64,000 nucleotides of DNA from Naegleria gruberi (Eukaryota). The notes below the pieces were generated by a model that saw only the letters and a program-made list of their open reading frames with translations, did no database searches and was not told the DNA's origin. The first letter of the stretch is position 1. Every line of letters begins with the position of its first letter. The stretch lies in the NCBI GenBank assembly GCA_000004985.1, contig GG738868.1; one strand, written 5' to 3'. Made by a program: the position numbers and the translations under genes. Shown here one piece after another: positions 25,987 through 61,400 of the stretch.

Positions 25987-27438
25987 ATGAACACTACCAA
26001 TTTTTCTTACATCCTCCAAGACCAAAATCAACAGGGGCATACTAGCATAACATTAAATAATGATGTTAGCTACTTGAATCCCTCCACTTTTTCTTCAATG
26101 TTCAATCAGCAAGATTCCTTACAAAACATCCAAACAGAATGCGTCATTAGTAATGGTATTCATGTACAAACATCAAATATGCAAAGGCATAATAACAATA
26201 ACAATAATAATCAAAGAAGCATGAATACAAACGAACAGATTAACAATTCAATACAGGATAACCAATATTTTGGGTTACCTAATAATCAATTTATTGATTA
26301 TTGCTCTAATAAGAATGAGCCATTCTTTATGGCTAAAATACCTACTGCTTACTATGAAAAGTTGACATTCTTTTTCAAACAAATTAACTCTCCTTCCTCA
26401 GAAAACACAAATGCCCTCAAAGTTCCAAAACAAAGTGATGACCTCTCTGATGATTCATCAAATGATAAACGAAGTAATAAGGGTGACTCTGTAATCAAAG
26501 GTTCATGGAGTGAAATTGAGGATGAGAAGCTGTTACAACTTGTAAAGAAGCATGGTCCAAAGAGATGGTCATTTATTGCTTCACATTTAGAAGGAAGAGT
26601 AGGTAAACAATGTAGAGAAAGATACCTCAATCACCTGGATCCAAAGATTAAGAAGAATGCTTGGACAGAAGAGGAAGATTCAATTATTATTGAAATGCAT
26701 GAAAAACATGGAAATCAATGGGCTAAAATCAGTAAATTCCTTGAAGGAAGAACAGCCAATGCCATTAAAAACCATTGGAATTCAACATTGTCCAAAAGAT
26801 TGGATAAAAAGAAGGGTGAAGAACAAGGAGACAAACAACTCTTAGAACAAACACAAATACAAATGCCTCAACAATCAATACCTGTCCAACAAATGGTCTA
26901 TTCATCTGTAGACACTTCGATGTTAAAAGAAGGATTGAGAACAGACTATGCAGACCAAATCCCACTTTCTTGTAAATCAGACTTTGCAGACTTTTTCACT
27001 CCAACCCCACAAGCTGCTGAGAACACAAATAAGAGAACATTCCCTTCAGGAACCATCGAGTCACTGAGTAAAAAGATCAAAACAGAGGAGTTACAATTAG
27101 AGACTGAAGAAACTCTCAATTCATTCGATAGTGGAAAGGAAAAATTCAAAAAGCTGAGACTCAATCTTATAGAGAAGAGTGACGATGTAAATAGTAGCTC
27201 AACAGTGATATGTCACGATTCAGGAACTCCTGGTATATCTGGTGTTTCAGTAATAACAGAACACATGTTACCTTCTGGATTTACACCAAAAGGTTTTGAT
27301 CCCTCTCCGAGTGGTTTGTCTTTATTCTCTCCATCCAATTTTAATGATGGTGCCACTCCTTCCTCAACATCCTTAGGTAATATTTGGATGGATACAGATG
27401 GGTTTTTCTCCTCCCCTAAGAGTACTAAGAATGTTTGA
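25987..27438 (+). CDS. Myb-family transcription factor with tandem SANT/Myb repeats (R2R3-type)
   Basis: 483-aa ORF with an N/Q-rich N-terminus. It has two canonical Myb repeats, WSEIEDEKLLQLVKKHGPKRWSFIASHLEGRVGKQCRERYLNHLDP and WTEEEDSIIIEMHEKHGNQWAKISKFLEGRTANAIKNHWNSTL. Confidence 0.8.
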   Translation: MNTTNFSYILQDQNQQGHTSITLNNDVSYLNPSTFSSMFNQQDSLQNIQTECVISNGIHVQTSNMQRHNNNNNNNQRSMNTNEQINNSIQDNQYFGLPNNQFIDYCSNKNEPFFMAKIPTAYYEKLTFFFKQINSPSSENTNALKVPKQSDDLSDDSSNDKRSNKGDSVIKGSWSEIEDEKLLQLVKKHGPKRWSFIASHLEGRVGKQCRERYLNHLDPKIKKNAWTEEEDSIIIEMHEKHGNQWAKISKFLEGRTANAIKNHWNSTLSKRLDKKKGEEQGDKQLLEQTQIQMPQQSIPVQQMVYSSVDTSMLKEGLRTDYADQIPLSCKSDFADFFTPTPQAAENTNKRTFPSGTIESLSKKIKTEELQLETEETLNSFDSGKEKFKKLRLNLIEKSDDVNSSSTVICHDSGTPGISGVSVITEHMLPSGFTPKGFDPSPSGLSLFSPSNFNDGATPSSTSLGNIWMDTDGFFSSPKSTKNV

Positions 27439-27642
27439 ATAAATACATATATTTAAACATTTACTGATGTAATATTTATTGAAGCTTTACTTTAGGTTTC
27501 TTGTCTGAAGTTGTTTTTAACTTTCCTTCCCTTGCTTCCACCATCTCACATCCATAACGCTCTAAAAAATTTTCATTGTAAAACAACAAATAACTGGTTG
27601 TTCTTTAAAAAATTTGTTGAAAAAAAAACTCGCAAATCCAAA

Positions 27643-28098
27643 ATGCCACCAAAGTCCAAGGAGAGAAAGCAAAAGGTTGAACAAGTTTACTACGGTCCAA
27701 GAAAGGGTGAAAACGAACTTGTCTTCGGTGTTGCTCATCTTTATGCTTCATTCAATAACACTTTCGTTCACGTCACTGACTTGTCTGGTCAAGAAACTAT
27801 TGTCAAGGTTACCGGTGGTATGAAGGTCAAGGCTGACAGAGATGAAGCTTCTCCATACGCTGCTATGCTTGCCGCTCAAGACGTTGTCGTCAGATGTAAG
27901 GAATTGGGTATCAATGCTCTCCACATTAAACTCCGTGCTACTGGTGGTGTCCTCACTAAGACTCCTGGTCCAGGTGCTCAATCAGCTTTGAGAGCTTTAG
28001 CTCGTGCTGGTATCAAGATTGGTAGAATTGAAGATGTCACTCCAATTCCTCACGACTCTACTAGAAGAAAGGGTGGTAGACGTGGTCGTAGATTGTAA
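27643..28098 (+). CDS. RPS14: 40S ribosomal protein S14 (uS11)
   Basis: 151-aa intronless [56 protein letters not shown]...[24 protein letters not shown], near-identical to eukaryotic RPS14. The listed 27511 start is an upstream non-ATG extension. C-ending codon bias is consistent with high expression. Confidence 0.9.
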
Positions 28099-28492
28099 AT
28101 GGTCTATTTTCATTTTCTCTCAATAAAAAAAATAAATAAATTCTAAAATATTAAATTGTTCTTGTCGTGGATTTTTGGTTCGGTAGATAGGATAACTAGT
28201 AAAATTTACAATATTGAAATTGTTTAATTATTGATCGAATTAATCCTCAATCCTTCTTTAAATTTTTAAGATCAAAATGAGTTTTTAAAGGAAAATTGTT
28301 TTGTTGTTTATTGTTTTGTGATTTGTACAAGGAGGGCCGGCAAAATTGTTTGTTGATTAGAAAAGTGTTTTGAAAATGTATGAATAAACTCTTAGGTTTG
28401 ATGAACTGTCACTCTCTCAGTTAACATCGTATTCTTAGTCGTGTCACACTATACACTTTAAAATTGTGGTAATTGATGATTGAATTGTTCAA

Positions 28493-29696
28493 TTATTGTA
28501 ATTGTTCACAAATCGAAGCCAAAACATCAATAGCAGACTTTGATTCGATTGGTTGATGGAAATAGAAAACACCAGGTTGTTGCCCAGTCATTGGAGAAAA
28601 GGCAAGAGAATAATCAACATCTTCTGTTTCTGAAGTTGTTGGTGAGGATGTTTCAGTTGTATAACCATCAATCTTTGAATAAATTCTAGCCATTGATCCA
28701 GCTACTTTTGGAGACAAGTTTTGCATATTGATTGGGGATGGTGGTTGATTCTTTAGCCTCTTTTTGAATGGCATGGAAGGGGAGTTAGTTGATTGATTTG
28801 GTGATGGAATACTTGTTGTTGGGGATTGAGGAGTTGCGTTGGATGAAATAACTGGAATCTTTTCACTTGGGAAATGTTCAACTACTCTTCTCTTTGGAGT
28901 TGATTCAGTTGTTGATGGACTTGTCACAATTTCTTCTTCTTCTTCATCTGAAGATTGTTTGGACTTCTTTGTCTTTTTACGTTTGTTATTAACTGTACGG
29001 TTTGGATTTTCTTGACATTCGCAACAAGTATAACTACCAGATTCATTATGTGGGTTTTTCATGCACTTTTTATGGATCCATTGATTGCAGTTAGTGCAAA
29101 TGAGCCAGAATTGCTTTTCATTTCTCATATCACTTTCTTTGAAAATTTCTAAACATTCTTTACAATAGTGACCTTTTCTATAATGAAGACCACACTTGTT
29201 ACATAAGAAAACTGTCTTGGCTTTAAAGTTATTCTTTGGACTTGCTTCTTCAATACACCAGCCCTATTATTACATTACTGTAAATGAAAATATTGAAATT
29301 ATTACTTACTTTTCTCCAGAGTGGTGTTTTGGTGGTACCACATTTAAAGTTTGCACATTGCTTAACATTTCCATTGACACTTTGATGAGCGTGGGTAATT
29401 GCTGCTGATGCCTTTTCTTCGTGATGATGTTGAGAAGTTGTTTGAATGAGAACACTATTAGCAGTTGGTACGGGAAGAAGTGGATGTGGATTGATTGTGA
29501 GAGGATTTGGTATTGTAGGAGTAAGAATTGGATTCAATGTTGAGGAGGATTTAATATTGACCAATGAAGGTTGAAGATTAGGTTGCAATGAAAGAGGAGG
29601 AGCAACAACGTTCATCACTGGTGTCATCTTTGGGAATGAATAAGAGAGACCATGAAAACAATCAGGTGGTGGTGGTGGTAATGCACTACTAGACAT
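28493..29696 (-). CDS. Zinc-finger protein with a GATA-type finger signature followed by a PHD-type C4HC3 finger (exons 29310..29696 and 28493..29263; 46-nt intron)
   Basis: Exon 1 ends ...CANFKCGTTKTPLWRK before GTAAGT. Exon 2 supplies ...VFLCNKCGLHYRKGH (GATA second half), then YCKECLEIFKESDMRNEKQFWLICTNCNQWIHKKCMKNPHNESGSYTCCECQ (C4HC3 spacing). The exact acceptor within the GATA loop is uncertain: three in-phase AGs give loop lengths of 14, 20 or 30 residues. The first Cys pair has an atypical C-x4-C spacing. Confidence 0.5.
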
Positions 29697-31952: not shown

Positions 31953-32378
31953 ATGGAAAATAATATCCTTGATCCACAGAGAATAAGTGTAAATACTGAA
32001 AGGGTTGAAATTGTTATTCCCGAAAATATGTCGTCCCCAAGAGTTGAGTATCAACAACAACCACAACAAGATGTTTACATTACAACTACTACTACAACTG
32101 AGCAGATATTTCAACAATTACCAGGTCAGGATGTAATGTTAAATCATTTTGTAAATTTGGAGGAAAATATCAAGATGGAGAATGACAAGAAGGGAGATTC
32201 GAATAAGAAGAAAAAGAAAGATAGTGGAAGTGATAAATCAGATAGTGAAAATAGCAGTAATGTAGATCCAGCCCTGAAAAAATTAAAAAAGAAGAAAAAA
32301 CTCAAAAAGAAGGCAGTTAAATGCTTTGGTAAGGCTGTTGATTTTTTGGATTCAGTTGGAGAAAGTGTTGATGGGCCA
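31953..32378 (+). CDS. Possible 5' exon of the large membrane glycoprotein gene (acidic/Q-rich then poly-Lys; alternatively an independent small ORF)
   Basis: The 142-codon ORF ends ...VDGP directly before GTAAGT. A 44-nt intron (GTAAGT...CCTGTTAG, 32379..32422) would join in phase 0 to GLRKKTFIGA immediately upstream of the MATTVMRIVVV ATG. Confidence 0.35.
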
Positions 32379-32452
32379 GTAAGTTTAATCTTATGAGTAT
32401 TTTTCATTATGACACCTGTTAGGGATTAAGAAAGAAGACATTTATTGGAGCT

Positions 32453-35400
32453 ATGGCAACAACTGTAATGAGGATAGTTGTTGTCATTCTAATTGCATAC
32501 AAATTATACTTATTGATTATAGATCAACGTACTCAAACTACTGGAAATATTTTAGCATTGAACTATTTCAGAACAACCGATACAAAATATATGGACATTC
32601 CAACTTTACAATTGAGTATTAGGAAAAATATTACATTTTATGAAAGGAGGGAATATGGTCCTTCTCTTCAAAGAATTGATATTTACGATAATTTTGGTTA
32701 TGAGAAGGTGTTTTCATCTCGTAGAAAAGCTGAGGATTCATCTTCTGTAGTTCCAGTTACCAAATCAATTAATGGAAAGGCCACTGTTAAATTGAATAGT
32801 TTTAGTCCTGCCCTCACTCCTCCTTTTACATCTGTGCAAATTGTAAGAGGTGCTAATGCATCACAGAGTGTGTTCACAACCAAGCAACAAAGTTTGAATA
32901 TGTTATCATCAAAAGTATCAGATCCTTTGAAGATTTTATATTTAGTGAATGGTGTATTTGATTCTGGTGATTCAGTATTTTATAATAATACTGTTCATTT
33001 GTACTTGAGATTTGTTGATGACATGTCTCATATTAAACCATGTCAGATTCAAATTGGTTTATTGAATAGTGGTGTTTTGGATCTGATCAGTACGGTTGGT
33101 GTAGATGGACAAACATATATTAAGAAAGAATATCAATCCCATGCTGAAACCTATTTTGTGACTCAAAATTCTACTTGGTTAGTTCCAATAACAAGTTATG
33201 AAGGTACTGGAACTACGAGTGAGATTTCATCTGATGGTATTAATTATAATATGATTTACTTGAATTCTAAATTTAACACTCAACAGTTATATGAATTCAT
33301 GTCAAGAACAAGTATTGGTGGGGCTAGTATTGATGTGGCCAAACGATATTCAGAAAAGGGAATGACACCATCATCTTTTCTAGAATGGTCCTTCCTGATT
33401 AGCTATGTCAATAACTTTATCTACACTGAAAATACTATTCAGTGTGATCAATACGAATCCGATGTTACAGATCTAACAACTTTGTATTCAAATCCATCCA
33501 AAAATTTAAAGGAATGGATATTCAATGTTGATATTCAAATCATTGCGGATATGATAGTTGATACTTCTGATTTTTTCTATGCCCAAGTACCTAGCACATT
33601 TAGTTTTGAATCTAATAGCTTTAATTTGATAATTTTTGGTGTAACTGGTTTGTCTGAAATTGTGCAAGTAACAAACATTGAATCTCCAACAATCTCTGCT
33701 AATGGAGCTACAAAGAAATACCTTAAATTATTTGTCACAAGAACAAATCCAAAAAATTTCAAATCTGTAGAGTCACAAGGTTCAACCTTTGTCAATTCGG
33801 TTATCAATTACAAGAAGGTCAACTCACCCAATACACTTCCTCTGGAATGGGTGTTAAACGGTTTCTGGAATTGTCCATCCTCTAAATATGGAGATAACTT
33901 TTGCGATTGTGAGTGTGGATTTTCAAACTCAACCCATACCTTTCGAGATGTAGATTGTGACAATTTGCTTCCAACTTTATTTTTTGGTAATAACTTTGTT
34001 AATAATTTTATGAAAACATCCTGTGCTTCAAGTGGTAAATTCTGTTCTTCATCTGGTTCATGTATCAGTGCTCCTTATTTGAAAGCTAGCAAACCATGTT
34101 ATTACAAAGCTTCATATCTTGGAGAAAAGCAAATCGTAGGATTTTTTGGAGCTCAGTCTGATTTCAAAGAGAGTCTTTGTTCTCAATGTCTTGGTGATAC
34201 CTTCTACAATCAAGTGCCTAGTCTTTCCTTTAATAACAACAAGTACATGTGTCAATTGACTCCAAAGGGCTATCTATTTGGAAGAGATATTTTCTCTGAT
34301 CTAATGTCTGGAAAAGATTATCTGCAACCATACACAAGTGGACCAGACTTTTTAGCAACTAAATGCTTAAATATTCCTGTAAGAGTCTATGTTGGTCGCC
34401 CAGTTTTCCCAACCATTCAAACAGGTAAATATTATGAGCTAAATATTGGAGATGAATCAAATGATCAATACGTTCAATCCATGTACTTTGTTAATTTAAA
34501 TGCCACAAAAAGAACAATCAAAACTCTCAATTCTGATAAGGACCTAGTTGGTGAATCCAAGTTTGATATTCAAATTCTATGTCTCGCAGCAGAGGATAAT
34601 TTTGAAGAAATCCAACCAATGACTGGGTTTGGTGTAGTTGCTTCATCTGTTTCTTCTTATTCCAATTACATTTTTGTAGAACCAAAGAGTATCACTAGCT
34701 CAGATCCGAATATTGATTTAAGTTTCATTGGTAGATTCCCAACCAGTGGAACTTTCAAAGTCCAATTCTATGCGGGTAGTTCGTATTCTGATGGATTGTA
34801 TGATTCATACACGCAACAACCAATAATGCTAGATGTAGAAGGGGTTACCGATTTAAACGGTTTACAAATACTTCAATTAAGATCACCACCTTCATTCTCC
34901 ATTGGCCTTGCATTTGAATTGAAATCTTTCAATAATTTACAAAGAACAAATGTCACCATTCAACAATTTGCTATTGGTACTGATTTATCAGGAACTAATA
35001 TTATTGAAATGGTTGCAAAATATAAGGCAGATCCAGTTACTTATGCTCAAAGAAGACCAAGAATGCTGATTAGACCTTCTGTGAGTGATTACAGTTATAC
35101 GCAATACGTGCAAATAGATAATGTTATAATCACTAATACCTTGCCTCTAACTTATGAGATTCTTTTTGCTCAACCAGTCACATCTGATTTTGATGAGGGT
35201 GCCTTTGTGGAGTGCATAAACGACATGTCAGTTGGAACAGTGTTGATACCACTTACATTATCAAGTTCCTATGCAAGACAAGCTTATGCTCCAGCTCAAT
35301 CATTTGAAAATGTTGGTATTCCTACACCTGATTCATTCAACATCGAATACTCCATGTTTGTTGTTCCTGACAAAAAGCATTTCCCAAACTCTGATATGGA

Positions 35401-36670
35401 TGATACATTTGAACAAGTACAAAATAGTCTCTCTGATACAGTTCTCAACTTGTGTCCTCGTGCTTATTCATACGAAAAGACCAGTATTCTCCAAAGCTCA
35501 GATGTTTGGACAAATTTTACTCTCAACCCCACCAGAGGTTATCAAATTAAAAACTGTACACTTCAGGTGTGGACAAGTAGTATGGTGAATAAGCATTGTG
35601 TAGATGCTAGCAAGTCTACTAAGAACAAGTATAATGATAATTGTATCAAAGAAATGCCACCTTCTCAATCTTTGATTTATAACCATGTGATTCAATTGAA
35701 CAACAAATGGCAAAACTATTCTGTAACATCAGCATCAGACGCCTCTACAGGTGGTGCAACTCGTCCTGAATATGAATATAATTTCAAACATATTTACCAT
35801 TTCCAACATGATAATTATGCTGATGAAACAGATTCCAAGTTTGCCAGTGAATCCCCAACTAGTGGTGATAAAACTGAAGATGGAACCAATTATTTCTTCA
35901 ATGGTAAACTGAATTATATTGGAAAATCCTTCAATCAATATGTACCGGCCAATAATCCAATTCTAGATATGGAAGCAACCATTGATTTATCAGATTTCTT
36001 TGCTAAAGATGTTCTAGCAAATTCCAATGAATTAACAGCCAATTATGTGTTTAACTTCCTAGCAGAAAGTGGAACTTGGAGAGGGATTAAAACAAAAACT
36101 GAGAAAGATGTTAATGCATTTGGAAGATCCATTTTCAATGCAGTTAATATTAGATGGGATTTTTCATCGATGGAAAAGGGATCGCTCAACAACAAGTTAA
36201 CACTCACTCCAGGTAGTCAATACAATCTATTTGCTACCCTCAAAGTAACAACAGTATATTCTAGTGGAGTATTTGGAAATGCAGATATAACCAATGTTCA
36301 AGTATTTGTTCAGTCAACCTCTGTAACTCATTCAGTTTTAGATTATTTGAATAGAAACAAATGCATTTTGAATTATGTTATTCAAATTGATATGGCACAA
36401 AGTTATCAGGTGAAATTGTCTTCCGACTATACATTTCTGAGCTTCTTCAGTGATGTTGGTGCTGCATTAGGAGTAATGTCATTAGGAGTCATTGTTGTTG
36501 AATTGTGGCAATCATACATTTCACAACCTGAAATGTTTTTACATGAAGCAATTAAAGAAGAAAAGAAACTTCGTAAAAAGAAAGCTAAAGGATCTGTTGC
36601 TCCTGATATCATGGTTGGTGAAAATCTAAATGCCTCCAATTTCGTAAATAATCTAGCCTCACTCAACTAG
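32453..36670 (+). CDS. Large type I membrane glycoprotein of unknown family (N-terminal hydrophobic signal/anchor, ~1300-aa ectodomain with Cys-rich region and many N-x-S/T sites, C-terminal TM plus short basic tail)
   Basis: Uninterrupted 1405-aa ORF. N-terminal hydrophobic MATTVMRIVVVILIAYKLYLLII. Cys-rich stretch WNCPSSKYGDNFCDCECGF...CASSGKFCSSSGSCISAPY...CSQCLGD. A single C-terminal TM (FLSFFSDVGAALGVMSLGVIVVELW) is followed by KEEKKLRKKKAK. No family motif I can name. Confidence 0.6.
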   Translation: MATTVMRIVVVILIAYKLYLLIIDQRTQTTGNILALNYFRTTDTKYMDIPTLQLSIRKNITFYERREYGPSLQRIDIYDNFGYEKVFSSRRKAEDSSSVVPVTKSINGKATVKLNSFSPALTPPFTSVQIVRGANASQSVFTTKQQSLNMLSSKVSDPLKILYLVNGVFDSGDSVFYNNTVHLYLRFVDDMSHIKPCQIQIGLLNSGVLDLISTVGVDGQTYIKKEYQSHAETYFVTQNSTWLVPITSYEGTGTTSEISSDGINYNMIYLNSKFNTQQLYEFMSRTSIGGASIDVAKRYSEKGMTPSSFLEWSFLISYVNNFIYTENTIQCDQYESDVTDLTTLYSNPSKNLKEWIFNVDIQIIADMIVDTSDFFYAQVPSTFSFESNSFNLIIFGVTGLSEIVQVTNIESPTISANGATKKYLKLFVTRTNPKNFKSVESQGSTFVNSVINYKKVNSPNTLPLEWVLNGFWNCPSSKYGDNFCDCECGFSNSTHTFRDVDCDNLLPTLFFGNNFVNNFMKTSCASSGKFCSSSGSCISAPYLKASKPCYYKASYLGEKQIVGFFGAQSDFKESLCSQCLGDTFYNQVPSLSFNNNKYMCQLTPKGYLFGRDIFSDLMSGKDYLQPYTSGPDFLATKCLNIPVRVYVGRPVFPTIQTGKYYELNIGDESNDQYVQSMYFVNLNATKRTIKTLNSDKDLVGESKFDIQILCLAAEDNFEEIQPMTGFGVVASSVSSYSNYIFVEPKSITSSDPNIDLSFIGRFPTSGTFKVQFYAGSSYSDGLYDSYTQQPIMLDVEGVTDLNGLQILQLRSPPSFSIGLAFELKSFNNLQRTNVTIQQFAIGTDLSGTNIIEMVAKYKADPVTYAQRRPRMLIRPSVSDYSYTQYVQIDNVIITNTLPLTYEILFAQPVTSDFDEGAFVECINDMSVGTVLIPLTLSSSYARQAYAPAQSFENVGIPTPDSFNIEYSMFVVPDKKHFPNSDMDDTFEQVQNSLSDTVLNLCPRAYSYEKTSILQSSDVWTNFTLNPTRGYQIKNCTLQVWTSSMVNKHCVDASKSTKNKYNDNCIKEMPPSQSLIYNHVIQLNNKWQNYSVTSASDASTGGATRPEYEYNFKHIYHFQHDNYADETDSKFASESPTSGDKTEDGTNYFFNGKLNYIGKSFNQYVPANNPILDMEATIDLSDFFAKDVLANSNELTANYVFNFLAESGTWRGIKTKTEKDVNAFGRSIFNAVNIRWDFSSMEKGSLNNKLTLTPGSQYNLFATLKVTTVYSSGVFGNADITNVQVFVQSTSVTHSVLDYLNRNKCILNYVIQIDMAQSYQVKLSSDYTFLSFFSDVGAALGVMSLGVIVVELWQSYISQPEMFLHEAIKEEKKLRKKKAKGSVAPDIMVGENLNASNFVNNLASLN

Positions 36671-36949: not shown

Positions 36950-38333
<1,384 letters not shown>

Positions 38334-38394: not shown

Positions 38395-39861
38395 TTGGCG
38401 CCATTTTTCTACAGAAAAAAAACAATAAAAAAATCGAAAATAATGCTCTCGACTCCAGCCTCTCCAAACAAGCACGTTTCAAGACAGAAGAACACTACAA
38501 GAAATTGGAAATCAAAGAGTAATTCGGATTATACAGTTTCTCCAATTTATGCCCTTAGAGTGAGTGCTGTTATTGAGGACACGTTAGAAAAATTGCAATT
38601 ATTAGATTTACTCTCGGGTGATATCAAGGAATTTATGGGAAGTGATGACCAAGAAAAGGAAGAAGATGAAGATGCTCTCGATCAAGAGACAAATGCTGTA
38701 GCTAATATTTTGGAGGATCAAAAAGTATTGGGAAAGAGATATGAACAATTATCATTCTTTTTAAGAGCAAACAAACAAGATAATCACATGTCTCAATCAC
38801 TGGAGGAAATCAATAAGGTTAAAGATGAATTGGAAATGATTCAAAGAAAGTTAAAAGATAACACTAAAAAGTTGTGTAGAAATTTGAAAGAAACACCAAA
38901 TGAATTGGAAAATTGGAAGAAAATTCAATCTGAAAGACATGAAATTCAAACAATATTCGTGACTCTTCTGAGAGAAATTCAAGCTGGATTGATTCCTCCT
39001 CAAGCCAAATCAACTATTCCTAAAAATAGAGGTCTTAACTACTCTACTGTTGTTGAAGAAAATGACGAAGAAGAAAGTGAAACAGTCTCAGTACCACAAA
39101 GTATTATTCCTGATGTACCATATGAATCATTTATGAAGAAAGTTGCTGAAGAAAAAGAAAAGAAACAATATTTACAACACATCACAGAAATTGAAAGTAA
39201 AACTTTAGAACAAGTCAATAAGCTAAAGATTGAAGTAATCAAAGAAAAAGAATTAAAGAAGACTGAAGTTGATGACAGAAGTACAAAGGTGAATACATTA
39301 CTTAACAAGTTGAGAAAGTTGAAGAAGCTCACTGCAGATGAAGATTCAAAGACAAAGGCAACAGAGGAAGCTTCTCACGAATCGAGAAGAAGAAGAGAAG
39401 CAAGCACTCTCCACAAACTTGAATCAGAATCTCGATCTAAAAACATAGAGTTAGAAGTGGAGAAGAATGTGTTTTCTCAGATTAAAAACTTTTTAGAAAA
39501 GAAAACAGATGAATTAAAAAGAAAGGGTGAATACTGGAGAGAGAAATATGAAAAGGAATCAGAAGAATTAAGATCCAAGATTATTCAATGGGAAGCCATG
39601 AGAGAAGAACAAATAGAAAAGCTTAAAAGGCTCGAGGAAAAGTTTGAGTTAGAAACTCAAGATAAGCAAGTTCAAGAAGATGTAGATGCTACAACAAAGG
39701 CAAAAGAGAAGGATGATGCAGAAAAGAAGATTCAAATGTCTGCTGATGTTATCAAAATGGCTTTCAAGTGCTACAAAGCTAGAGAAGATTTTGCTAATCG
39801 TAAAAAGAAAAAGAAGACAAGAAGCGCAAGTAACCCAAAGAGTGCAGGTTCTTCTAAGTAA
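38395..39861 (+). CDS. Coiled-coil protein with a C-terminal IQ-like calmodulin-binding motif
   Basis: 488-aa ORF (the alternative ATG at 38443 is also plausible). It has long heptad-rich E/K segments and a C-terminal IQMSADVIKMAFKCYKAREDFANRKKKKK resembling an IQ motif. Architecture is reminiscent of IQCG/DRC9-like axonemal proteins, but the assignment is not secure. Confidence 0.5.
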   Translation: MAPFFYRKKTIKKSKIMLSTPASPNKHVSRQKNTTRNWKSKSNSDYTVSPIYALRVSAVIEDTLEKLQLLDLLSGDIKEFMGSDDQEKEEDEDALDQETNAVANILEDQKVLGKRYEQLSFFLRANKQDNHMSQSLEEINKVKDELEMIQRKLKDNTKKLCRNLKETPNELENWKKIQSERHEIQTIFVTLLREIQAGLIPPQAKSTIPKNRGLNYSTVVEENDEEESETVSVPQSIIPDVPYESFMKKVAEEKEKKQYLQHITEIESKTLEQVNKLKIEVIKEKELKKTEVDDRSTKVNTLLNKLRKLKKLTADEDSKTKATEEASHESRRRREASTLHKLESESRSKNIELEVEKNVFSQIKNFLEKKTDELKRKGEYWREKYEKESEELRSKIIQWEAMREEQIEKLKRLEEKFELETQDKQVQEDVDATTKAKEKDDAEKKIQMSADVIKMAFKCYKAREDFANRKKKKKTRSASNPKSAGSSK

Positions 39862-56097: not shown

Positions 56098-58121
56098 TTA
56101 TTGTACTAAACACTTCTTTGAATGAGATTTACCATAATTTTCATCTCTACTGATTGCAATTGCTTTCAATATAATTTCACTCAAATCATCAAAACCATAT
56201 CTTTTTTTTGAGCTAGTTTCAATATAAGTTATACAACCTATCTTTTTAGCCATCAACTCTCCTTCTTCAAATGTGATTGGATTTGTATCATATTTGAGAA
56301 GAAAAATTGGATCAGTGCGATAGTCAACCTTATTATTCACCAATATAATAGGTGTATCAGGACAGTGATGTCTAATTTCTGGAATCCATTTGAGTGCAAC
56401 ATTGAAAAATGAATTTTCTGCTACGCAACTAAAGCTCAGTAAGAATAGAGATGTATCTGGATAATTCTATTAATCAATTAGTCAACTGATAAGATAGGTT
56501 ATTACTTACCAATGGACGTAAACTATTGATATTGAAAAATATTGAAATATATAAAACAACCTACCAATCATAATCTAAAATCGATGAGTAGAAATAAGTA
56601 TTTTCATAACTACTTACCTTCAGGACCAGCAGTATCCCTTTCAAATGTCAATTATTCATATTGACTCAATAAAACTTACCATAGACCAATTAAATAACTC
56701 TTTCCCTCAACTCTGACACTCAAATCATAATTATCAAATATTGTTGGAATGAACTCTTCTGGATAGCTACCTGTAGCATATGTAATATATAATGATGTTT
56801 TACCAACTGATCCATCACCAACCTGAATTATCTTTTCACTTGCAGGAGGTGAATATTTTTCTAACATTTCATTCATTTGAGAGTATTGTAAAATTTCAGA
56901 TGATTTTGAATAATGTTTACCATCTAAACGTTGTGTTGCTTTTCTAATTGTCCGTATTCTTTTAGAATTCTTCTGTTCAACTTTTGACAATATGGATTGA
57001 ATTGTTTCAATTAGAATTTGTCTAAAATTTGATGTTTTAAGTAAATTTAATTCAAATAGATTTGCTTGAGAGAAATATTTTGATGCAATTTTAAATTCCT
57101 TCATCTTTTTTAAATAAAAATCTTTCCAAAATTGATCTTCACTTGTTAATTCACAAATTCTTAATGATTTGGAAACTAAATGTAATTTCATTAAATCTTG
57201 AATATTAAGAAATAATAGAATTGATCTTAAAATATCATCATTCAGATTCTTGAATAGTTCAATATTAAATGAAAATGTCAAAATGTCACAAGTCATTTGA
57301 AATCCTCCAAATATAAAATAATTAAATGAAGAATCAATGGGAATTTGAACTAAAGTGTGGAGACATGGTCTAGCTACTTCCTTATCATTGAAAATATTCG
57401 AAAGTGAATGATTTTTTTCAATTTTCCAACCTTCACTAATATTTTCCAAATCAAGACATGTACAATCTGTGAAATCTTGATTTAGATTACAACCACCAAT
57501 ACTATATAACTTATTTCCTTCCAAAACCATTGAATGTCCATATCTAGCAAAATTATCATTCAAAATAATCTCAGCTTGACATTTGACATTTCCAACATTT
57601 TCCAATGAATCAAGTGAAATCTTAATTGTATCCTTAATAATTGAATCATAATTTCTACCACCATGTATATACCACTCTCCTGTTTCATTATTTAACACGG
57701 ATGCATGATAATATCGATGTGAAATTACTTCTTGACTTGAATCAATTTCCACTCTTGTCCATTCCATATTTGTAAAATTAAATTTAAATAATTCATTTGA
57801 TGCAAAATAATTTTTACAATTATATCCACCAAATATAAATAATTGATTTTTAAAAATTACACTTGAATGACCATATAAAGGTGGAATTAATCTATCTTTG
57901 GAATTTAATTGTTTCCATGAATTATTTGTAAATTCATATATCCAAATATCATTATGAAAACTATTAATAGATTTACCTCCAAATAAAATCATTTCATTTG
58001 AATTTCTTAAATTGGTAGTATGACAATTTCTTGCACATGGAATTAATTTTTCTATTGAATGATTCGGATCAGTTAATATTGTTAAATTTCTCCATTTTTT
58101 AGTTGTAATATCAAATTTCAA
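56098..58121 (-). CDS. Kelch-repeat / F-box-like / Rho-family small GTPase fusion (exons 56680..58121, 56618..56637, 56565..56574, 56510..56522, 56098..56466)
   Basis: Continuous ORF with >=5 Kelch blades (LFGG/IFGG/IHGG/SIGG/IFGG plus W positions), then an F-box-like DDILRSILLFLNIQDLMKLHLVSKSLRI. It continues without a stop into the Rho G1-G3 region KIIQVGDGSVGKTSLYITY...FIPTIFDNY...LWDTAGPE. Four introns (42, 43, 42, 43 nt; GTAAGT/GTAGGT donors) and two micro-exons (10 and 13 nt) close phase to give ...DTAGPEDYDCLRPLNYPDTSLF...NNKVD...TSSKK...KKCLVQ(stop). Q61 is replaced by P, the conserved switch-II Arg by Cys, and CLVQ is a CAAX box. Confidence 0.65.
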
Positions 58122-58405
58122 TTAAATCATTACAATAAATTGAATTTTTTAAACAACCTCCGAATAGATAGAGTTTATTCTCTCTATTAACAATACTACT
58201 ACCAATTCTAATATTACAGCTGGTAAGTGGAAGATTGAGAAGATTCAAATAACGTCATTTTTTTTTAAAGTTGATATTTTGTAAACTATTTCAATGTTCC
58301 TATCACCAATGATAAACTTGCTTAAACTTTCAAAAAAACGACTAAATATATGTAATATAAATATATATAAATAATTAAATATATAATAATAATAAATAAT
58401 AAATT

Positions 58406-61400
58406 TTATTCATTTCCATTTCCATTAATTTGAACATATTGTTGTAAAATAGTATCGATTGGAATGTCAGGATTTCCTTTTCCTTTTTGAAAAGTTTCTT
58501 CATCTTGATAACGTTGATGTAAAATGTGTGCAATCATTCTATTATATTCCTTTTTAAATTCAATTCCAATTAATTTAATATAATAAAATAAAATAAATGC
58601 TAATAAACAAATTGAATAAATTGACATTTGAATTATAAATGTTGAATAAACTGAATGAATTGAATCAACAAGTAAACAAATTAAACATCCAGGTATAGTA
58701 ATTACTATATTAATTATAAAAGTACCAATTAAAGGAATGTATGAATTTGTATAATTATGTGATAAAATAAACATTTGATAACAATTCATAAAAACATAAA
58801 TAATACTACTTGTAAATGATACAATCCAATATTGTTGTATTATTTGATCAATATTTTTAACTATTGTTGAATCTGATGTTAATTTAACTCCTTCCATTAC
58901 TATATTTGTAATATCAGTTACTAAATATATACAAATAAATATTAAAGTTATAATTAAAAGTAATAAAATTGATTTAATATTTAAATAAATTAATCCTTTG
59001 TAATTTAATCTATTTATACATCTTCTACTATATATAGTAATTAATGAATTTCCTAATAAACAAATTTTAATATAAATTAAACTATAACAAGTAACAATAA
59101 TAAAAGAAATAAATTCACTTGTAGAATAATTATAATAAATTATAATTGAATTAATTATATAAATTATTAAAGTTGAAAATGAAAATCCAAATATAGTTAA
59201 ATAATTTCCAATTAATCTTTTAAAAATAAATTTATCAAATTTAAAAAAATCATTATTATAAAAACAAAAACATGAAATTCCCTTTTTAGTAAATAACATT
59301 AATAAAATTGAAATTATTAATGGAAATAAATATGAAATTCCATAAATTAATGAAATATAATAATAAATTTTATCATTAAATGCATGAATAATTTCTGATT
59401 TTGGAATTAATAAAAATACTATATATAGTAATACACCAAATATAATTGTAAAATAAACATGAACAAAATTATAAAAAGCAATAAAAATTGAAATAAATAA
59501 TAAAATAAAATTATAAAATAAAATATTACTAATATTAAAATAAAATATAAATTCCCAAACTGTTGATCTATTTATAGCATAAAATATTCCAAAACTGGCA
59601 GCATATTGTAAAATACTTGATAAAAATGTTAATATGAATGAAATTAAAACAATTTTACCAATAAAAGAATTTGATAAAAATAATTTTGAATTTTGAATAT
59701 CAAATAATTCACGATGATAATAATATTTAAATATATTCATTCTATAATTAGTAATATCCATAAATAGATAAATAATAATTGGATACATGAAAATTAATTC
59801 TAAAATTAAATTAATTGTAAATAAAATAATAAACATTAAAGAACTATCATTATCAATAATATTAAAAGTATTATTAATTAAATATTTTGTACTAATAAAT
59901 GTCATGATAAAAATAGATGAAATTAAAATAAATAATTTTGTAATTGAACTTCCATGTGAATATTCTTTAAATGAAGGATGAACAATTAATGATGACATTG
60001 GTTCTGATTTTCTCATTAACCAATCATTTTCATCAAATTCATTAGAATCTTCTGAATCTGAATTATCATTTTCAATATTTAATAGTGATGTACTACTATT
60101 ACTATTCCACCTCCACCAACACCACCTCCACCTCCACCAACCACCAAATATACTATTAGATGATGTTAAATGTTGTGATCTAATATTTGAATGATTTGAA
60201 TGATGATTATTTGGATGAATGGATTGTTCTTGTGAAATGGATTGATAATATTCATTAAATGCCTTTTCCTTAATTGAACTTTGAAAGTTTTGTTTCACTA
60301 CCAACATTGAAATATCACTCATTAGAGATTGATTATTACTATTATTATTATTATTGGAATGTAAATCTTGAAATGCCTTATCCAATGGATTTGTCTTTTC
60401 AATTGGTGCTAAAAGTTGAATTTTTTTACGTTGAGTTGAATTGATAGAATTTGATCGTTGTTCAAAATCTTGATTATTATTAACATTTGAATTTTCATTC
60501 TTTTCAGTTGACATGATAAAGAATGAAGTAATATCATCAATAACCAATGATTGTTCTGAGGTTTCTTCTTTTTTAGATGAGGAGAATGAATTCATTTTTC
60601 TTGTTGTACTTGTTGAGAGAGCACTGAATGAACTTGATTTACCTGGTAATTGATTAATTGATTTCTTTGTTGATTTTACAACAACTTTAACTTCATCTTC
60701 ATCATCATCATCATCGTAATGATCATAAACTTGTCTCTGACCTAAATATTGAGATTCCTCTCTGGCCAATTGTTCATCCTTTAAAACATTCATATCAACT
60801 TCATCATCATTATTTTCATTATTATTATTACTATTATATTTCATTAGACTTGATAATTGTTGTGCAATGTCCATTCCATTTCTAACAGATTGACGATTAT
60901 TCATTACAATGGCATTGGAATTATAATTTTTAGAACTTGCATCTAAAATATCTGGAATTGAAGACATGGTACTCATATTCTCATCAGTTAAACGATCATC
61001 TTCATCATCCTGATCATCTCCACCATCTTGATCATCATCCTGATCATCATCATCATCATCGTCACTTGATGCTTCAGTCATTTCATTACTCGTTGGGAGA
61101 ACATCAAGAAATTGAATGGATTGATTCACTTCTTTAAATTTATCAATCCACTTGAACATTTCATCTGAATTATTAGTCTTTAAATATAATACTCTCTTTT
61201 TTGTTACAATTTTAAATATATTAAATTCATTCTTAAATTCATTAAAACATTCAACAATAATTGATTTATCAATATTTAGTGATCCCTTCTTTTTCTTCTT
61301 TTTTTCATCGGTATAATAGGTTAATTCAGATTCATCATGAAATACAAAATATCTACGTTTCCAACTCTTTACAATTTTACCTTGTTTTTGTAAAAATCCT

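What the first reader, a model, noticed from the sequence alone, without database searches (positions are those of the whole stretch)
31953..36670. Orphan ~1.4-1.55k-aa type I membrane glycoprotein, with a possible lysine-rich cytosolic 5' exon joined by a 44-nt intron
The 1405-aa ORF has an N-terminal hydrophobic segment, a very large ectodomain with a compact Cys cluster (CDCECGF...CASSGKFCSSSGSC...CSQC) and dozens of N-x-S/T sequons. It ends in a single TM and a short basic tail. The upstream 142-codon ORF ends exactly at GTAAGT, and the acceptor CCTGTTAG places it in phase with the main ORF. If spliced, the N-terminal hydrophobic stretch becomes an internal signal-anchor and the protein is bitopic. 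Size and topology recall gamete/cell-fusion or adhesion proteins and CatSper auxiliary-subunit-like proteins, but no family motif is recognisable by eye.
Basis: partly seen in the sequence, partly recalled or inferred. Interest (0 to 1): 0.55.

Follow-up and report, generated by a model that had tools for sequence, protein, structure and literature searches.

The report
Giant two-pass membrane protein, ancient family
This is one spliced Naegleria gene for a 1557-residue protein that crosses the membrane twice; it is not an orphan but belongs to an unnamed family found across distant protist groups, and the parts next to the membrane faintly resemble ER-vesicle receptors (Erv41/46) and ENaC/PAC-type channels.

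Summary
The sequence facts hold. The 1405-codon ORF (32453..36670), the upstream 142-codon ORF, the GTAAGT donor at 32379 and a 44-nt intron that restores frame are all present. Splicing is supported. All three orthologues (N. lovaniensis, N. gruberi, Willaertia magna) carry the same N-terminal extension. In Willaertia the junction 'GESVDGP-TIRKK' is uninterrupted genomic DNA. The product is a 1557-aa two-pass protein: a roughly 146-aa Lys-rich cytosolic N-tail, TM1, a roughly 1300-aa ectodomain, TM2 and a 49-aa tail.

Two claims fail. There are 10 ectodomain sequons (about 19 expected), not dozens. The protein is not an orphan: an exhaustive profile search found 123 relatives, including Cyanophora, Vitrella, Amoebophrya, Rigifila, Paratrimastix and Kipferlia. 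They share the topology and three collinear conserved blocks, and none has a Pfam domain.

Weak but reproducible remote signals:
- The pre-TM1 motif plus TM1 resembles ERGIC_N of Erv41/46.
- The last strand plus TM2 resembles DEG/ENaC.

There is no support for HAP2 or CatSper-like readings. Function is inferred: an oligomeric receptor or channel-like complex of the two-TM beta-sandwich class.

The parts
31953..32378 (+). Exon 1: 142 codons, cytosolic N-terminal region. The first ~100 aa are low-complexity and poorly conserved; the last ~35 aa are conserved.
   Evidence: ORF list and sequence. Aligned with the N-termini of P0001-P0003.
32379..32422 (+). Intron, 44 nt, GTAAGT...TGTTAG, phase 0. 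Retention would hit a TGA at 32394.
   Evidence: Sequence. N. lovaniensis has a 45-nt intron at the same site (shifted 1 nt). Willaertia has no intron here and reads straight through. Neighbouring gene introns are 40-90 nt with the same GT..TAG ends.
32423..36670 (+). Exon 2: 1415 codons plus stop (36668..36670).
   Evidence: Orthologues have I/F/F at that position.
32274..32315 (+). Poly-lysine tract (LKKLKKKKKLKKKA) in the cytosolic N-tail. Conserved in the four heteroloboseans, not in distant relatives.
32343..32452 (+). Conserved pre-TM1 motif FLDsvGESvDGP|GlRKKTfiGA, interrupted by the intron. Family consensus is LD.yG....P..r.KT..Ga. This is the segment that matches Pfam ERGIC_N.
32438..32521 (+). 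TM1 (TFIGAMATTVMRIVVVILIAYKLYLLII) with an Arg (R159) inside the helix. The Arg is invariant in the 7 relatives aligned there by hmmalign; the 17-sequence MAFFT alignment A4 shows K or non-basic residues at that column in several distant relatives.
   Evidence: Hydropathy. Conservation. Column in A4. Same position of TM1 in full-length relatives.
32522..33487 (+). Conserved N-domain of the ectodomain. Motifs: YMDIPTLQL, NITFYE, PSLQRIDIyDnfGYE, hLylRF...IKPCQiQiGL, SYVNNF...C.
   Evidence: Collinear HMM matches in distant relatives. Alignment A4.
33872..34366 (+). Cysteine-rich block. The first part (33872..33958) is an LNR-like knot, C-x3-Y-x-D-G-x-C-D-C-x-C-G-...-D-x-D-C. Relatives read 'W.C...Y.DG.CDC.CG..DPDC'.
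   Evidence: The LNR likeness is by eye only; Pfam Notch/LNR did not hit.
34367..35281 (+). Middle ectodomain. Conserved only among heteroloboseans and close relatives; variable in length in the family (whole proteins range from about 1,350 to 3,850 aa).
   Evidence: Column occupancy. Domain table.
35282..36433 (+). Conserved C-domain (alpha/beta part, then four long beta-strands running into TM2). This is the most widely conserved block of the family.
   Evidence: Exhaustive search. Alignment A3. AF2 model m62db5d0d2392 with mean pLDDT 84 and pTM 0.77. Fold searches.
36434..36520 (+). TM2 (FLSFFSDVGAALGVMSLGVIVVELWQSYI). It carries a conserved small-residue ridge G-A-x-x-G-x-x-(G/A/S)-x-G followed by L..WQ. 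Together with the preceding strand, this segment matches DEG/ENaC beta12-TM2.
36521..36667 (+). Cytosolic C-tail, 49 aa: a juxtamembrane helix (QPEMFLHEAIKEEKK), a basic patch, then a variable end. There is no terminal KKxx.

Best explanation
WHAT IT IS (shown).
- One gene of two exons (31953..32378 and 32423..36670) in a Naegleria genome.
- It encodes a 1557-aa two-pass membrane protein: a ~146-aa Lys-rich cytosolic N-tail, TM1, a ~1300-aa disulfide-bonded ectodomain (or luminal domain), TM2 and a 49-aa cytosolic tail.
- It is the single-copy orthologue of N. lovaniensis C9374_006012, N. gruberi NAEGRDRAFT_63931 and W. magna ABK040_003302.
- It belongs to an unnamed, Pfam-dark family. The family occurs in Discoba, Metamonada, Glaucophyta, Alveolata and CRuMs.
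- Family members share the same topology and three collinear conserved blocks: pre-TM1 motif + TM1 + N-domain; an LNR-like Cys knot; C-domain + TM2.

HOW IT MOST LIKELY WORKS (inferred).
- The membrane core is built like the two-TM 'hairpin + beta-sandwich' proteins (Erv41/46, PAC/TMEM206, DEG/ENaC).
- The chain leaves TM1, and four long beta-strands run straight into TM2. This forms a rigid membrane-proximal stalk that carries a large distal head.
- The TM helices are among the best-conserved parts: an Arg in TM1 (invariant in the 7 relatives aligned there) and a small-residue ridge plus WQ in TM2. I therefore take them to be functional rather than mere anchors.
- My preferred mechanism (about 1 in 3): subunits assemble, probably as trimers, through TM2. 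Binding or force on the head is passed through the strand-TM2 connection to gate a pore or to signal.
- Nearly as likely (about 0.3): an Erv41/46-style cycling luminal receptor.
For: Gene model:
- Frame-restoring 44-nt GT..AG intron.
- The orthologue proteins extend N-terminally across the junction.
- The same intron site is used in N. lovaniensis, and the junction is contiguous in Willaertia.

Topology:
- Two hydrophobic segments only.
- The same pattern occurs in full-length relatives P0010, P0014, P0015, P0024, P0030, P0065 and P0105.

Family:
- 123 hits at E<=1e-3, of which 52 are at E<=1e-10.
- Taxa were identified from source names.
- Conserved blocks are collinear.
- No Pfam domain in 9 distant full-length members, in the window protein, or above threshold in any of the 72 segments of A3 and A4.

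ERV link:
- The family consensus matches ERGIC_N at E=2e-4 (21.9 bits, top hit).
- The match is lost in 5 of 5 shuffles of the pre-TM motif.
- ERGIC_N is the only Pfam family hit by more than one member.
- hhalign against an ERGIC1/2/3 profile: P=6e-4, z=7.9 against local shuffles.

Channel link:
- hhalign of A3 against an ASIC1 + ENaC alpha/beta/gamma beta12-TM2 profile: P=2.8e-4, probability 41%, z=6.2. With ENaC alone, z=4.1 in the same register.
- Pfam ASC against the consensus: E=0.15 at profile positions 375-440.
- In Foldseek, 46 of the top 50 hits are PAC, P2X or ASIC, with PAC probability 0.9-0.99.

TM conservation.
Against: - Every remote signal is below the usual acceptance thresholds. 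ERGIC_N scores 21.9 bits against a gathering score of 27, and only with a consensus sequence.
- hhalign probabilities are 29-41% over 38-48 columns that include a TM helix.
- The two sequence signals point to different families (N-end to ERV, C-end to ENaC), and ERV and ENaC show no signal with each other.
- Hallmark motifs are missing. There is no HG motif or GxS filter (DEG/ENaC). There is no COPIIcoated_ERV domain and no terminal di-lysine or hydrophobic sorting signal (ERV).
- PAC shows no sequence signal.
- TM1 and the N-domain could not be modelled together with the C-domain, so the stalk built from both ends is an analogy, not a result.
- Oligomeric state, localisation and any conductance are untested.
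Confidence: 0.5

Rival explanations
1. Giant divergent paralogue of the Erv41/Erv46 (ERGIC2/3) family. It would be a luminal cargo or retrieval receptor that cycles between ER and Golgi. The huge Cys-containing luminal domain would bind cargo, and the cytosolic tails would bind coat proteins.
For: - Same topology as Erv41/46: two TMs, both termini cytosolic, bulk luminal (PMC7001479).
- ERGIC_N is the best and only recurrent Pfam signal.
- hhalign gives z=6.1-7.9.
- Erv46 also carries a functional Cys-rich insert in its luminal domain, and the complex may be a trimer (PMC7001479).
Against: - COPIIcoated_ERV (PF07970) is not detected in any member.
- The C-module compared with an ERV profile gives z=0.3.
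- There is no C-terminal KKxx or terminal hydrophobic signal; the tails end ..ASLN..IPMN..YKPM and ..QNLN.
- The N-tail is ~146 aa instead of ~20-30.
- The Cys motif differs (LNR-like, not CXXC/CCXXC).
- The luminal domain is 4-10 times larger.
Confidence: 0.3
2. A cell-surface adhesion or gamete/cell-fusion glycoprotein. The TM segments would be only anchors.
For: - Large Cys-containing ectodomain.
- Four conserved N-glycosylation sequons.
- Naegleria and many of the other taxa have flagellate or sexual stages (general knowledge).
Against: - No Pfam hit, including HAP2-GCS1.
- No PDB sequence hit with the four-species profile at E<=10.
- No such protein among the fold neighbours.
- Those families are single-pass type I, whereas this protein is two-pass.
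- The TM helices are among the most conserved parts of the protein, which is unusual for mere anchors.
- Sequons are fewer than expected.
Confidence: 0.1
3. The upstream ORF is a separate gene or an untranslated upstream ORF. The protein would start at 32453 with a cleavable signal peptide (type I).
For: - An ATG at 32453 directly precedes the hydrophobic segment.
- No transcript data are available here.
Against: - The Met is not conserved.
- The residues on both sides of the junction are invariant (GES.DGP / .RKK).
- The junction is contiguous in Willaertia DNA, and the intron is at the same site in N. lovaniensis.
- Distant relatives also have a cytosolic stretch carrying the LD.yG...P..r.KT motif before TM1.
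Confidence: 0.03

Closest known systems
Erv41/Erv46 (ERGIC2/ERGIC3; Pfam ERGIC_N PF13850 + COPIIcoated_ERV PF07970)
   Same: - Two TMs with both termini cytosolic and the bulk luminal.
- A conserved cytosolic motif just before TM1 (ERV 'FDayPK....r.kT..GG..t'; here 'LD.yGes..gP..rkKT..Ga..t').
- A Cys-rich insert in the luminal domain.
- A small-residue-rich TM2.
   Different: - 4-5 times longer.
- No detectable COPIIcoated_ERV domain.
- No terminal sorting signals.
- Long Lys-rich N-tail.
- Different Cys motif.
- All similarity scores are below family thresholds.
DEG/ENaC/ASIC channels (Pfam ASC PF00858)
   Same: - Two TMs, cytosolic termini and a large Cys-containing extracellular loop.
- The last beta-strand, the linker and TM2 align in one register ('..V.y.I.f....(12)..Y.(7).D(l/v)G(a/g)..G'; hhalign P=2.8e-4).
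   Different: - No HG motif before TM1.
- No GxS/GAS filter in register.
- The ectodomain is three times larger, with no detectable finger/thumb/knuckle sequence.
- ASC is not detected by Pfam in any member.
- DEG/ENaC is described as animal-specific (PMC6986788), whereas this family was found here only in protists.
PAC/ASOR (TMEM206) proton-activated chloride channel
   Same: - Same two-TM topology, with a beta-rich ectodomain running directly into TM2.
   Different: - No sequence signal at all (hhalign z=-0.3 and 1.2).
- PAC is 350 aa.
- TM-scores are only 0.1-0.2.
Lin-12/Notch repeat (LNR)-type calcium-binding cysteine knots
   Same: The pattern C..(Y).DG.CD(C).C(G)..D.DC, with acidic residues between cysteines.
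   Different: The resemblance is by eye only. Pfam Notch/LNR does not hit, and the spacing is shorter than in canonical LNRs.

Membership tests
Erv41/Erv46 (ERGIC2/3) | Two TM segments, N- and C-termini cytosolic, bulk luminal | tested here: met
   Hydropathy shows exactly two TM segments, at residues 148-176 and 1480-1508. Relatives have the same pattern. Orientation is inferred from the basic flanks.
Erv41/Erv46 (ERGIC2/3) | ERGIC_N domain (PF13850) at or above gathering score (27 bits) | tested here: not met
   - Own sequence: no hit at E<=10.
- 2 of 17 relatives: weak hits, best E 0.14.
- Family consensus: 21.9 bits, E 2e-4, profile positions 1-48 of 91 only.
- Specific to motif order.
- hhalign P 6e-4, z 7.9.
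The signal is real-looking but sub-threshold.
Erv41/Erv46 (ERGIC2/3) | COPIIcoated_ERV domain (PF07970) before TM2 | tested here: not met
   No hit in the window protein or in 55 C-domain sequences at E<=10. hhalign of A3 against ERGIC3 or an ERGIC1/2/3 profile gives z=0.0-0.3.
Erv41/Erv46 (ERGIC2/3) | Twisted beta-sandwich luminal core as in Erv41p (PDB 3zlc) | tested here: inconclusive
   [not shown]
Erv41/Erv46 (ERGIC2/3) | C-terminal COPI di-lysine or COPII hydrophobic sorting signal (PMC7001479) | tested here: not met
   The tails end ASLN, IPMN, YKPM and QNLN in the four heteroloboseans. Lysines are internal only.
DEG/ENaC/ASIC | Two TMs with cytosolic termini and a large extracellular loop | tested here: met
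DEG/ENaC/ASIC | ASC domain (PF00858) at or above gathering score (23.6 bits) | tested here: not met
   No hit in the window protein, its fragments or 55 relatives. The consensus fragment scores 11.5 bits, E 0.15, at profile positions 375-440 of 455. The profile of A1 or A3 against PDB sequences finds no ASIC or ENaC at E<=10.
DEG/ENaC/ASIC | Pre-TM1 His-Gly gating motif and post-TM1 FPAVT(I/L)CN | tested here: not met
   The pre-TM1 sequence reads ES(V)DGP and the post-TM1 sequence reads YMD(I/V)PTLQL. hhalign of the N-module against ASIC1a gives z=-1.0. The motif definitions are from my own knowledge of the family.
DEG/ENaC/ASIC | Conserved beta12-linker-TM2 segment with (D/N)xGGxxGL and the G/S-x-S filter | tested here: inconclusive
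   The same register holds over 48 columns: hhalign P 2.8e-4, probability 41%, z 6.2; ENaC alone gives z 4.1. The filter position reads (G/A/S)-L-G with a one-residue offset.
DEG/ENaC/ASIC | Trimeric assembly forming a cation pore | not testable with these tools
   No multimer prediction or experiment was available.
PAC/ASOR (TMEM206) | Sequence membership | tested here: not met
   hhalign of A3 and A4 against human PAC (identical to 7jna_A) gives z=-0.3 and 1.2. No Pfam hit.
PAC/ASOR (TMEM206) | Fold of the membrane-proximal beta-domain + TM2 | tested here: inconclusive
   [not shown]
   - No Pfam hit at E<=1.
- No PDB sequence hit at E<=10.
- None among the fold neighbours of the C-domain.
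- Topology is two-pass.
The N-terminal and middle ectodomain folds remain unmodelled (pLDDT 36).

The most novel reading that the evidence does not exclude
The family would be a previously unrecognised, pan-eukaryotic (LECA-age) branch of a structural superclass of trimeric two-TM beta-sandwich proteins. That superclass would unite Erv41/46 vesicle receptors with PAC, P2X and DEG/ENaC channels. This protein would be a giant ligand- or force-gated channel or sensor subunit whose TM2 gate is homologous to that of DEG/ENaC. That would move the origin of the DEG/ENaC pore module from animals to the root of eukaryotes and provide a sequence bridge between ERV proteins and channels.
Probability: 0.15. 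Interest if true: 0.85.

Novelty: new variant of a known kind. Interest (0 to 1): 0.55.

Why it matters
If the reading holds, several points follow.
- A conserved, single-copy, 1,400-3,800-aa membrane protein family spanning at least five eukaryotic supergroups has so far escaped naming. It carries no Pfam domain, and every source name seen is 'hypothetical', 'unnamed' or 'predicted'.
- Its TM helices and membrane-proximal domain are its best-conserved parts. They resemble families that work as trimers and respond to pH or ligands (PAC, ASIC/ENaC; Erv41-46 binds cargo pH-dependently and may be a 1:2 trimer, PMC7001479).
- This makes two questions testable. One is whether DEG/ENaC-type gates predate animals. 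The other is whether ERV receptors and two-TM channels share an architecture.
- For Naegleria, a genus that includes the pathogen N. fowleri, it is a large, conserved surface or luminal protein. Among the relatives whose source could be identified, none came from an animal.
- For genome annotation, the finding gives a corrected gene model: two exons, 1557 aa.

Tried and rejected
1. Pfam on the ORF, exon 1, fragments, 55 C-domain sequences, 17 N-module sequences and 9 distant full-length relatives. Nothing reached threshold.
2. Profiles A1 and A3 against all PDB sequences. No channel or ERV hit. The only hit was CsgC, E 4e-4, over a 53-aa 'lPAN.P' stretch, which remains unexplained. The consensus fragment found nothing.
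3. AF2 of the C-terminal 1200 aa with a 4-sequence alignment. Mean pLDDT was 36, so the model was unusable. This cost one of the two jobs, so the N-domain, Cys block and middle region have no model.
4. Word-indexed homologue search with alignments A1 and A3. It added nothing beyond the three orthologues and two metagenomic fragments.
5. afdb50 fold library. It was not available.
6. Look-up of the spliced protein's own contig. The closest available orthologue is N. lovaniensis at 63% identity.
7. Internal repeats by self-BLAST. None found.
8. Sequence link to PAC, link of the C-module to ERV, link of the N-module to ASIC, and a direct ERV-ENaC link. All were indistinguishable from local-shuffle nulls.
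9. Literature search for the orthologue identifiers. No paper mentions them.
10. HAP2, CatSper, tectonic and nicastrin readings. Rejected for lack of any signal and because the topology is wrong.
Full report
**1. The observation**

The window is AT-rich eukaryotic DNA, 27-36% GC over most of its length. The ORF 32453..36670 (+) of 1405 codons exists, and so does an upstream ORF starting at 31953. Reading the DNA gives these features:
- Codon 142 of the upstream ORF ends at 32378.
- GTAAGT starts at 32379.
- The 44-nt intron ends ...CCTGTTAG at 32422.
- Exon 2 starts at 32423, 30 nt (10 codons) upstream of the ATG at 32453 and in the same frame.

The spliced product is 1557 aa. A Kyte-Doolittle scan finds only two hydrophobic segments, at residues about 148-176 and 1480-1508. 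Fifteen of the 23 cysteines lie between residues 626 and 790.

Two details of the finding are wrong. The protein has 13 N-x-S/T sequons, 10 of them in the ectodomain, where composition predicts about 19. That is neither 'dozens' nor an enrichment. Four sequons are conserved in all four species. There are no internal repeats.

**2. The gene model**

A word-indexed search of 5.8 billion proteins found three homologues:
- N. lovaniensis C9374_006012: 1558 aa, 63% identity.
- N. gruberi NAEGRDRAFT_63931 (D2V4W6): 1535 aa, 51% identity.
- Willaertia magna ABK040_003302: 1484 aa, 42% identity.

All three are about 150 aa longer at the N-terminus than the bare ORF. They align with the spliced model along the whole length, with 65% mean column identity. 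The residues on both sides of the junction, GES(V/I)DGP | (G/T)(L/I)RKK(T/S), are nearly invariant. The Met at 32453 is not conserved.

Mapping the proteins on their genomic loci gave two results:
- N. lovaniensis has a 45-nt intron at the same place, shifted by one base, plus two further introns that the window gene lacks.
- Willaertia has no intron there, so 'GESVDGPTIRKKSYMGAF' is contiguous DNA.

This is the strongest evidence short of cDNA that exon 1 and the long ORF are one coding unit. The introns of the neighbouring gene are 40-90 nt with the same GT...TAG ends. The protein is therefore two-pass, with a long cytosolic N-tail, not type I.

**3. Not an orphan**

An exhaustive HMMER search used a profile of the C-terminal 1200 aa against 1.84 billion cluster representatives. 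It gave 123 proteins at E<=1e-3, 52 at E<=1e-10 and 11 at E<=1e-30.

Source names place them in these taxa:
- Cyanophora paradoxa
- Vitrella brassicaformis
- two Amoebophrya strains
- Rigifila ramosa
- Paratrimastix pyriformis
- Kipferlia bialata
- an MMETSP transcriptome and many metagenomes

Full-length members (1,350-3,850 aa) repeat the topology: a cytosolic stretch, TM1, a giant ectodomain, then TM2 about 50-200 residues from the end.

A full-length HMM matches them collinearly in three blocks:
- profile positions ~100-480: pre-TM1 motif, TM1 and N-domain
- ~600-750: Cys block, reading 'W.C...Y.DG.CDC.CG..DPDC' in relatives
- ~1080-1520: C-domain and TM2

None of nine distant full-length members carries any Pfam domain. 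Every source name seen is 'hypothetical', 'unnamed' or 'predicted'. No paper mentions the orthologue identifiers.

**4. Remote similarity by sequence**

By eye, TM2 and the strand before it looked like DEG/ENaC, so I treated this as a lead to test. Direct tests failed:
- Pfam ASC does not hit the protein, its fragments or 55 relatives.
- Profiles against PDB sequences find no channel.

Profile-profile comparison gives a weak signal in one fixed register.
- A 55-sequence C-domain alignment (A3) was compared with human ASIC1a.
- Only beta12-TM2 aligned, with P=0.004.
- Against 100 templates shuffled within 15-residue windows, which keeps local hydrophobicity, z=4.9 and 0 of 100 reached the real score.
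- With a profile of ASIC1 plus ENaC alpha/beta/gamma segments copied from the PDB print-out, P=2.8e-4, probability 41% and z=6.2.
- ENaC alone gives z=4.1 in the same register.
- The family consensus hits Pfam ASC at E=0.15, at profile positions 375-440 of 455.

The N-module (A4, 17 sequences) points elsewhere.
- Its consensus hits Pfam ERGIC_N as top match: E=2e-4, 21.9 bits against a gathering score of 27, profile positions 1-48.
- ERGIC_N is the only Pfam family hit by more than one member.
- Shuffling the 24-residue pre-TM motif abolishes the hit in 5 of 5 trials. Shuffling TM1 leaves 13 bits in 2 of 4 trials.
- hhalign against ERGIC3 gives z=6.1. Against an ERGIC1/2/3 profile it gives P=6e-4 and z=7.9.

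Negative controls were all at null level:
- N-module against ASIC1
- C-module against ERV
- both modules against PAC (sequence identical to 7jna_A)
- ERV against ENaC

So the signals are specific, but short, sub-threshold, and pointing to two different families.

**5. Remote similarity by structure**

AF2 with the four-species alignment failed, with pLDDT 36. With the 55-sequence alignment, the C-domain plus TM2 (window 35282..36568) gave mean pLDDT 84 and pTM 0.77. The model is an alpha/beta part followed by four long strands (residues 312-328, 334-352, 360-369, 375-380) that run directly into the TM2 helix at 385-413.

Foldseek against the PDB found no hit at E<=1e-3. However, 46 of the top 50 hits are trimeric two-TM channels:
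- 20 PAC/ASOR/TMEM206 chains, holding ranks 1-15, with E 2e-3 to 5e-2 and probability up to 0.99
- 11 P2X chains
- 15 ASIC chains
- The other four are Erv41p (twice), Meckelin and one unrelated protein.

- Everything else is a single long helix.

The Erv41p crystal lacks its TM segments, so the channel hits have an advantage. For the beta-domain alone, Erv41p is the tightest match. These values indicate a shared architecture. They do not prove homology.

**6. What it most likely is and does**

Shown:
- a two-exon gene
- a two-pass topology
- an ancient family conserved in three blocks
- TM helices that are among the best-conserved parts. TM2 carries G (79%), a small residue (99%), x, x, G/A (91%), x, x, G/A/S (86%), x, G (83%), then L, W, Q. 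TM1 carries an Arg that is invariant in the 7 relatives aligned there, though alignment A4 shows K or non-basic residues at that column in several distant relatives.

Inferred:
- The membrane core belongs to the class of two-TM proteins in which a beta-sandwich sits directly on the TM hairpin (Erv41/46, PAC, DEG/ENaC, P2X).
- In the solved members of this class, the strands after TM1 and before TM2 form the membrane-proximal sheet, and the proteins work as trimers. Erv41-Erv46 is also proposed to be a 1:2 trimer with pH-dependent cargo binding (PMC7001479).
- I therefore expect an oligomer held together by TM2. A rigid stalk would carry a ~1000-aa head that includes a probably Ca2+-binding, LNR-like knot.

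Probabilities:
- Transduction of binding or force to a pore or signal (channel/sensor reading): about 0.35.
- A cycling luminal receptor of the ERV type: about 0.30.
- An adhesion or fusion protein with passive anchors: about 0.10.
- Something else: the remainder.

The poly-Lys tract is confined to Heterolobosea, so it is not part of the family's core mechanism.

**7. Comparison with known families and novelty**

The protein fails the membership tests of every family considered:
- no ASC, no HG motif and no GxS in register
- no COPIIcoated_ERV, and ERGIC_N below threshold
- no terminal sorting signals
- no PAC sequence signal
- no HAP2 or CatSper signal

It therefore should not be filed as an ENaC, an ERV or a PAC protein. 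It works, at most, like them at the level of architecture. I rate it a new variant of a known kind: the two-TM beta-sandwich architecture in a giant, Pfam-dark, protist-wide family.

DEG/ENaC is described as animal-specific (PMC6986788). From memory, Studer et al. 2011 (pmid 21558422) reported ENaC-like genes in N. gruberi. I could not read that paper here, and it concerns canonical-size proteins.

**8. Verdict**

- 'Orphan', 'type I' and 'dozens of sequons' are wrong.
- The proposed analogies are unsupported.
- The interesting residue is the family itself and its faint double likeness to ERV receptors and ENaC-type channels.
- Interest 0.55. The most novel reading not excluded, a LECA-age giant channel/sensor family bridging ERV and DEG/ENaC, has a probability of about 0.15.

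Noticed in passing
window 32144..32407 (-): An 87-aa antisense ORF rich in F/L/S. It is simply the reverse-complement image of the Lys/Glu-rich coding stretch of exon 1, so it is an artefact of composition and not a gene.
   Followed up: partly
window ~36950..38333 (+): The downstream gene reads by eye as an isocitrate/isopropylmalate-dehydrogenase-type enzyme. It is split by at least three short introns (GTATGT or GTTAGT ... TAG, ~40-90 nt). It is useful as a local standard for intron size and splice-site form.
   Followed up: partly
window 25987..29696 and 38395..39861: Neighbouring ORFs, identified by eye only: a Myb-repeat protein (25987..27438), a ribosomal protein uS11/S14-like ORF (27511..28098), PHD-like and GATA-like zinc-finger ORFs on the minus strand, and a 488-aa K/E-rich coiled-coil ORF (38395..39861).
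   Followed up: no
window 58001..60000: GC content drops to 17%. The stretch is AT-rich low-complexity sequence with short degenerate tandem repeats.
   Followed up: partly
L001 6001..10856 (N. lovaniensis) and L002 6001..10519 (Willaertia magna): Intron positions differ between orthologues. N. lovaniensis has three introns: one at the shared site, one inside the Cys knot (KYG|GDGFCDC) and one inside TM2. Willaertia has one intron, at codon 42/43. The window gene has only the shared site. Gene neighbours within 6 kb differ in all three genomes, so there is no local synteny.
   Followed up: partly
model m62db5d0d2392 (window 35282..36568): One model retrieves PAC/TMEM206, P2X, ASIC/ENaC and Erv41p together. 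Erv41p was described as having no structural homologues, and the Erv41-Erv46 complex is thought to be a 1:2 trimer (PMC7001479). ERV receptors and trimeric two-TM channels may share an architecture that has not been recognised.
   Followed up: partly
alignment A3, profile positions 182-234 (window about 35930..36050): The conserved 'lPAN.P.l.t.l.l' stretch of the C-domain matches the curli protein CsgC (PDB 2y2t, 2xsk) at E=4e-4 in a profile search of PDB sequences. This may be a shared beta-sandwich edge motif or chance. It is unexplained.
   Followed up: no
window 32438..32521 and 36434..36520: TM1 contains an Arg (R159) that is invariant in the 7 relatives aligned there by hmmalign, although the MAFFT alignment A4 shows other residues at that column in several distant relatives. 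TM2 starts with a frequent Asp and ends with a conserved W-Q. Charged or polar residues conserved inside or at the ends of both helices suggest an intramembrane interaction or a lining.
   Followed up: partly
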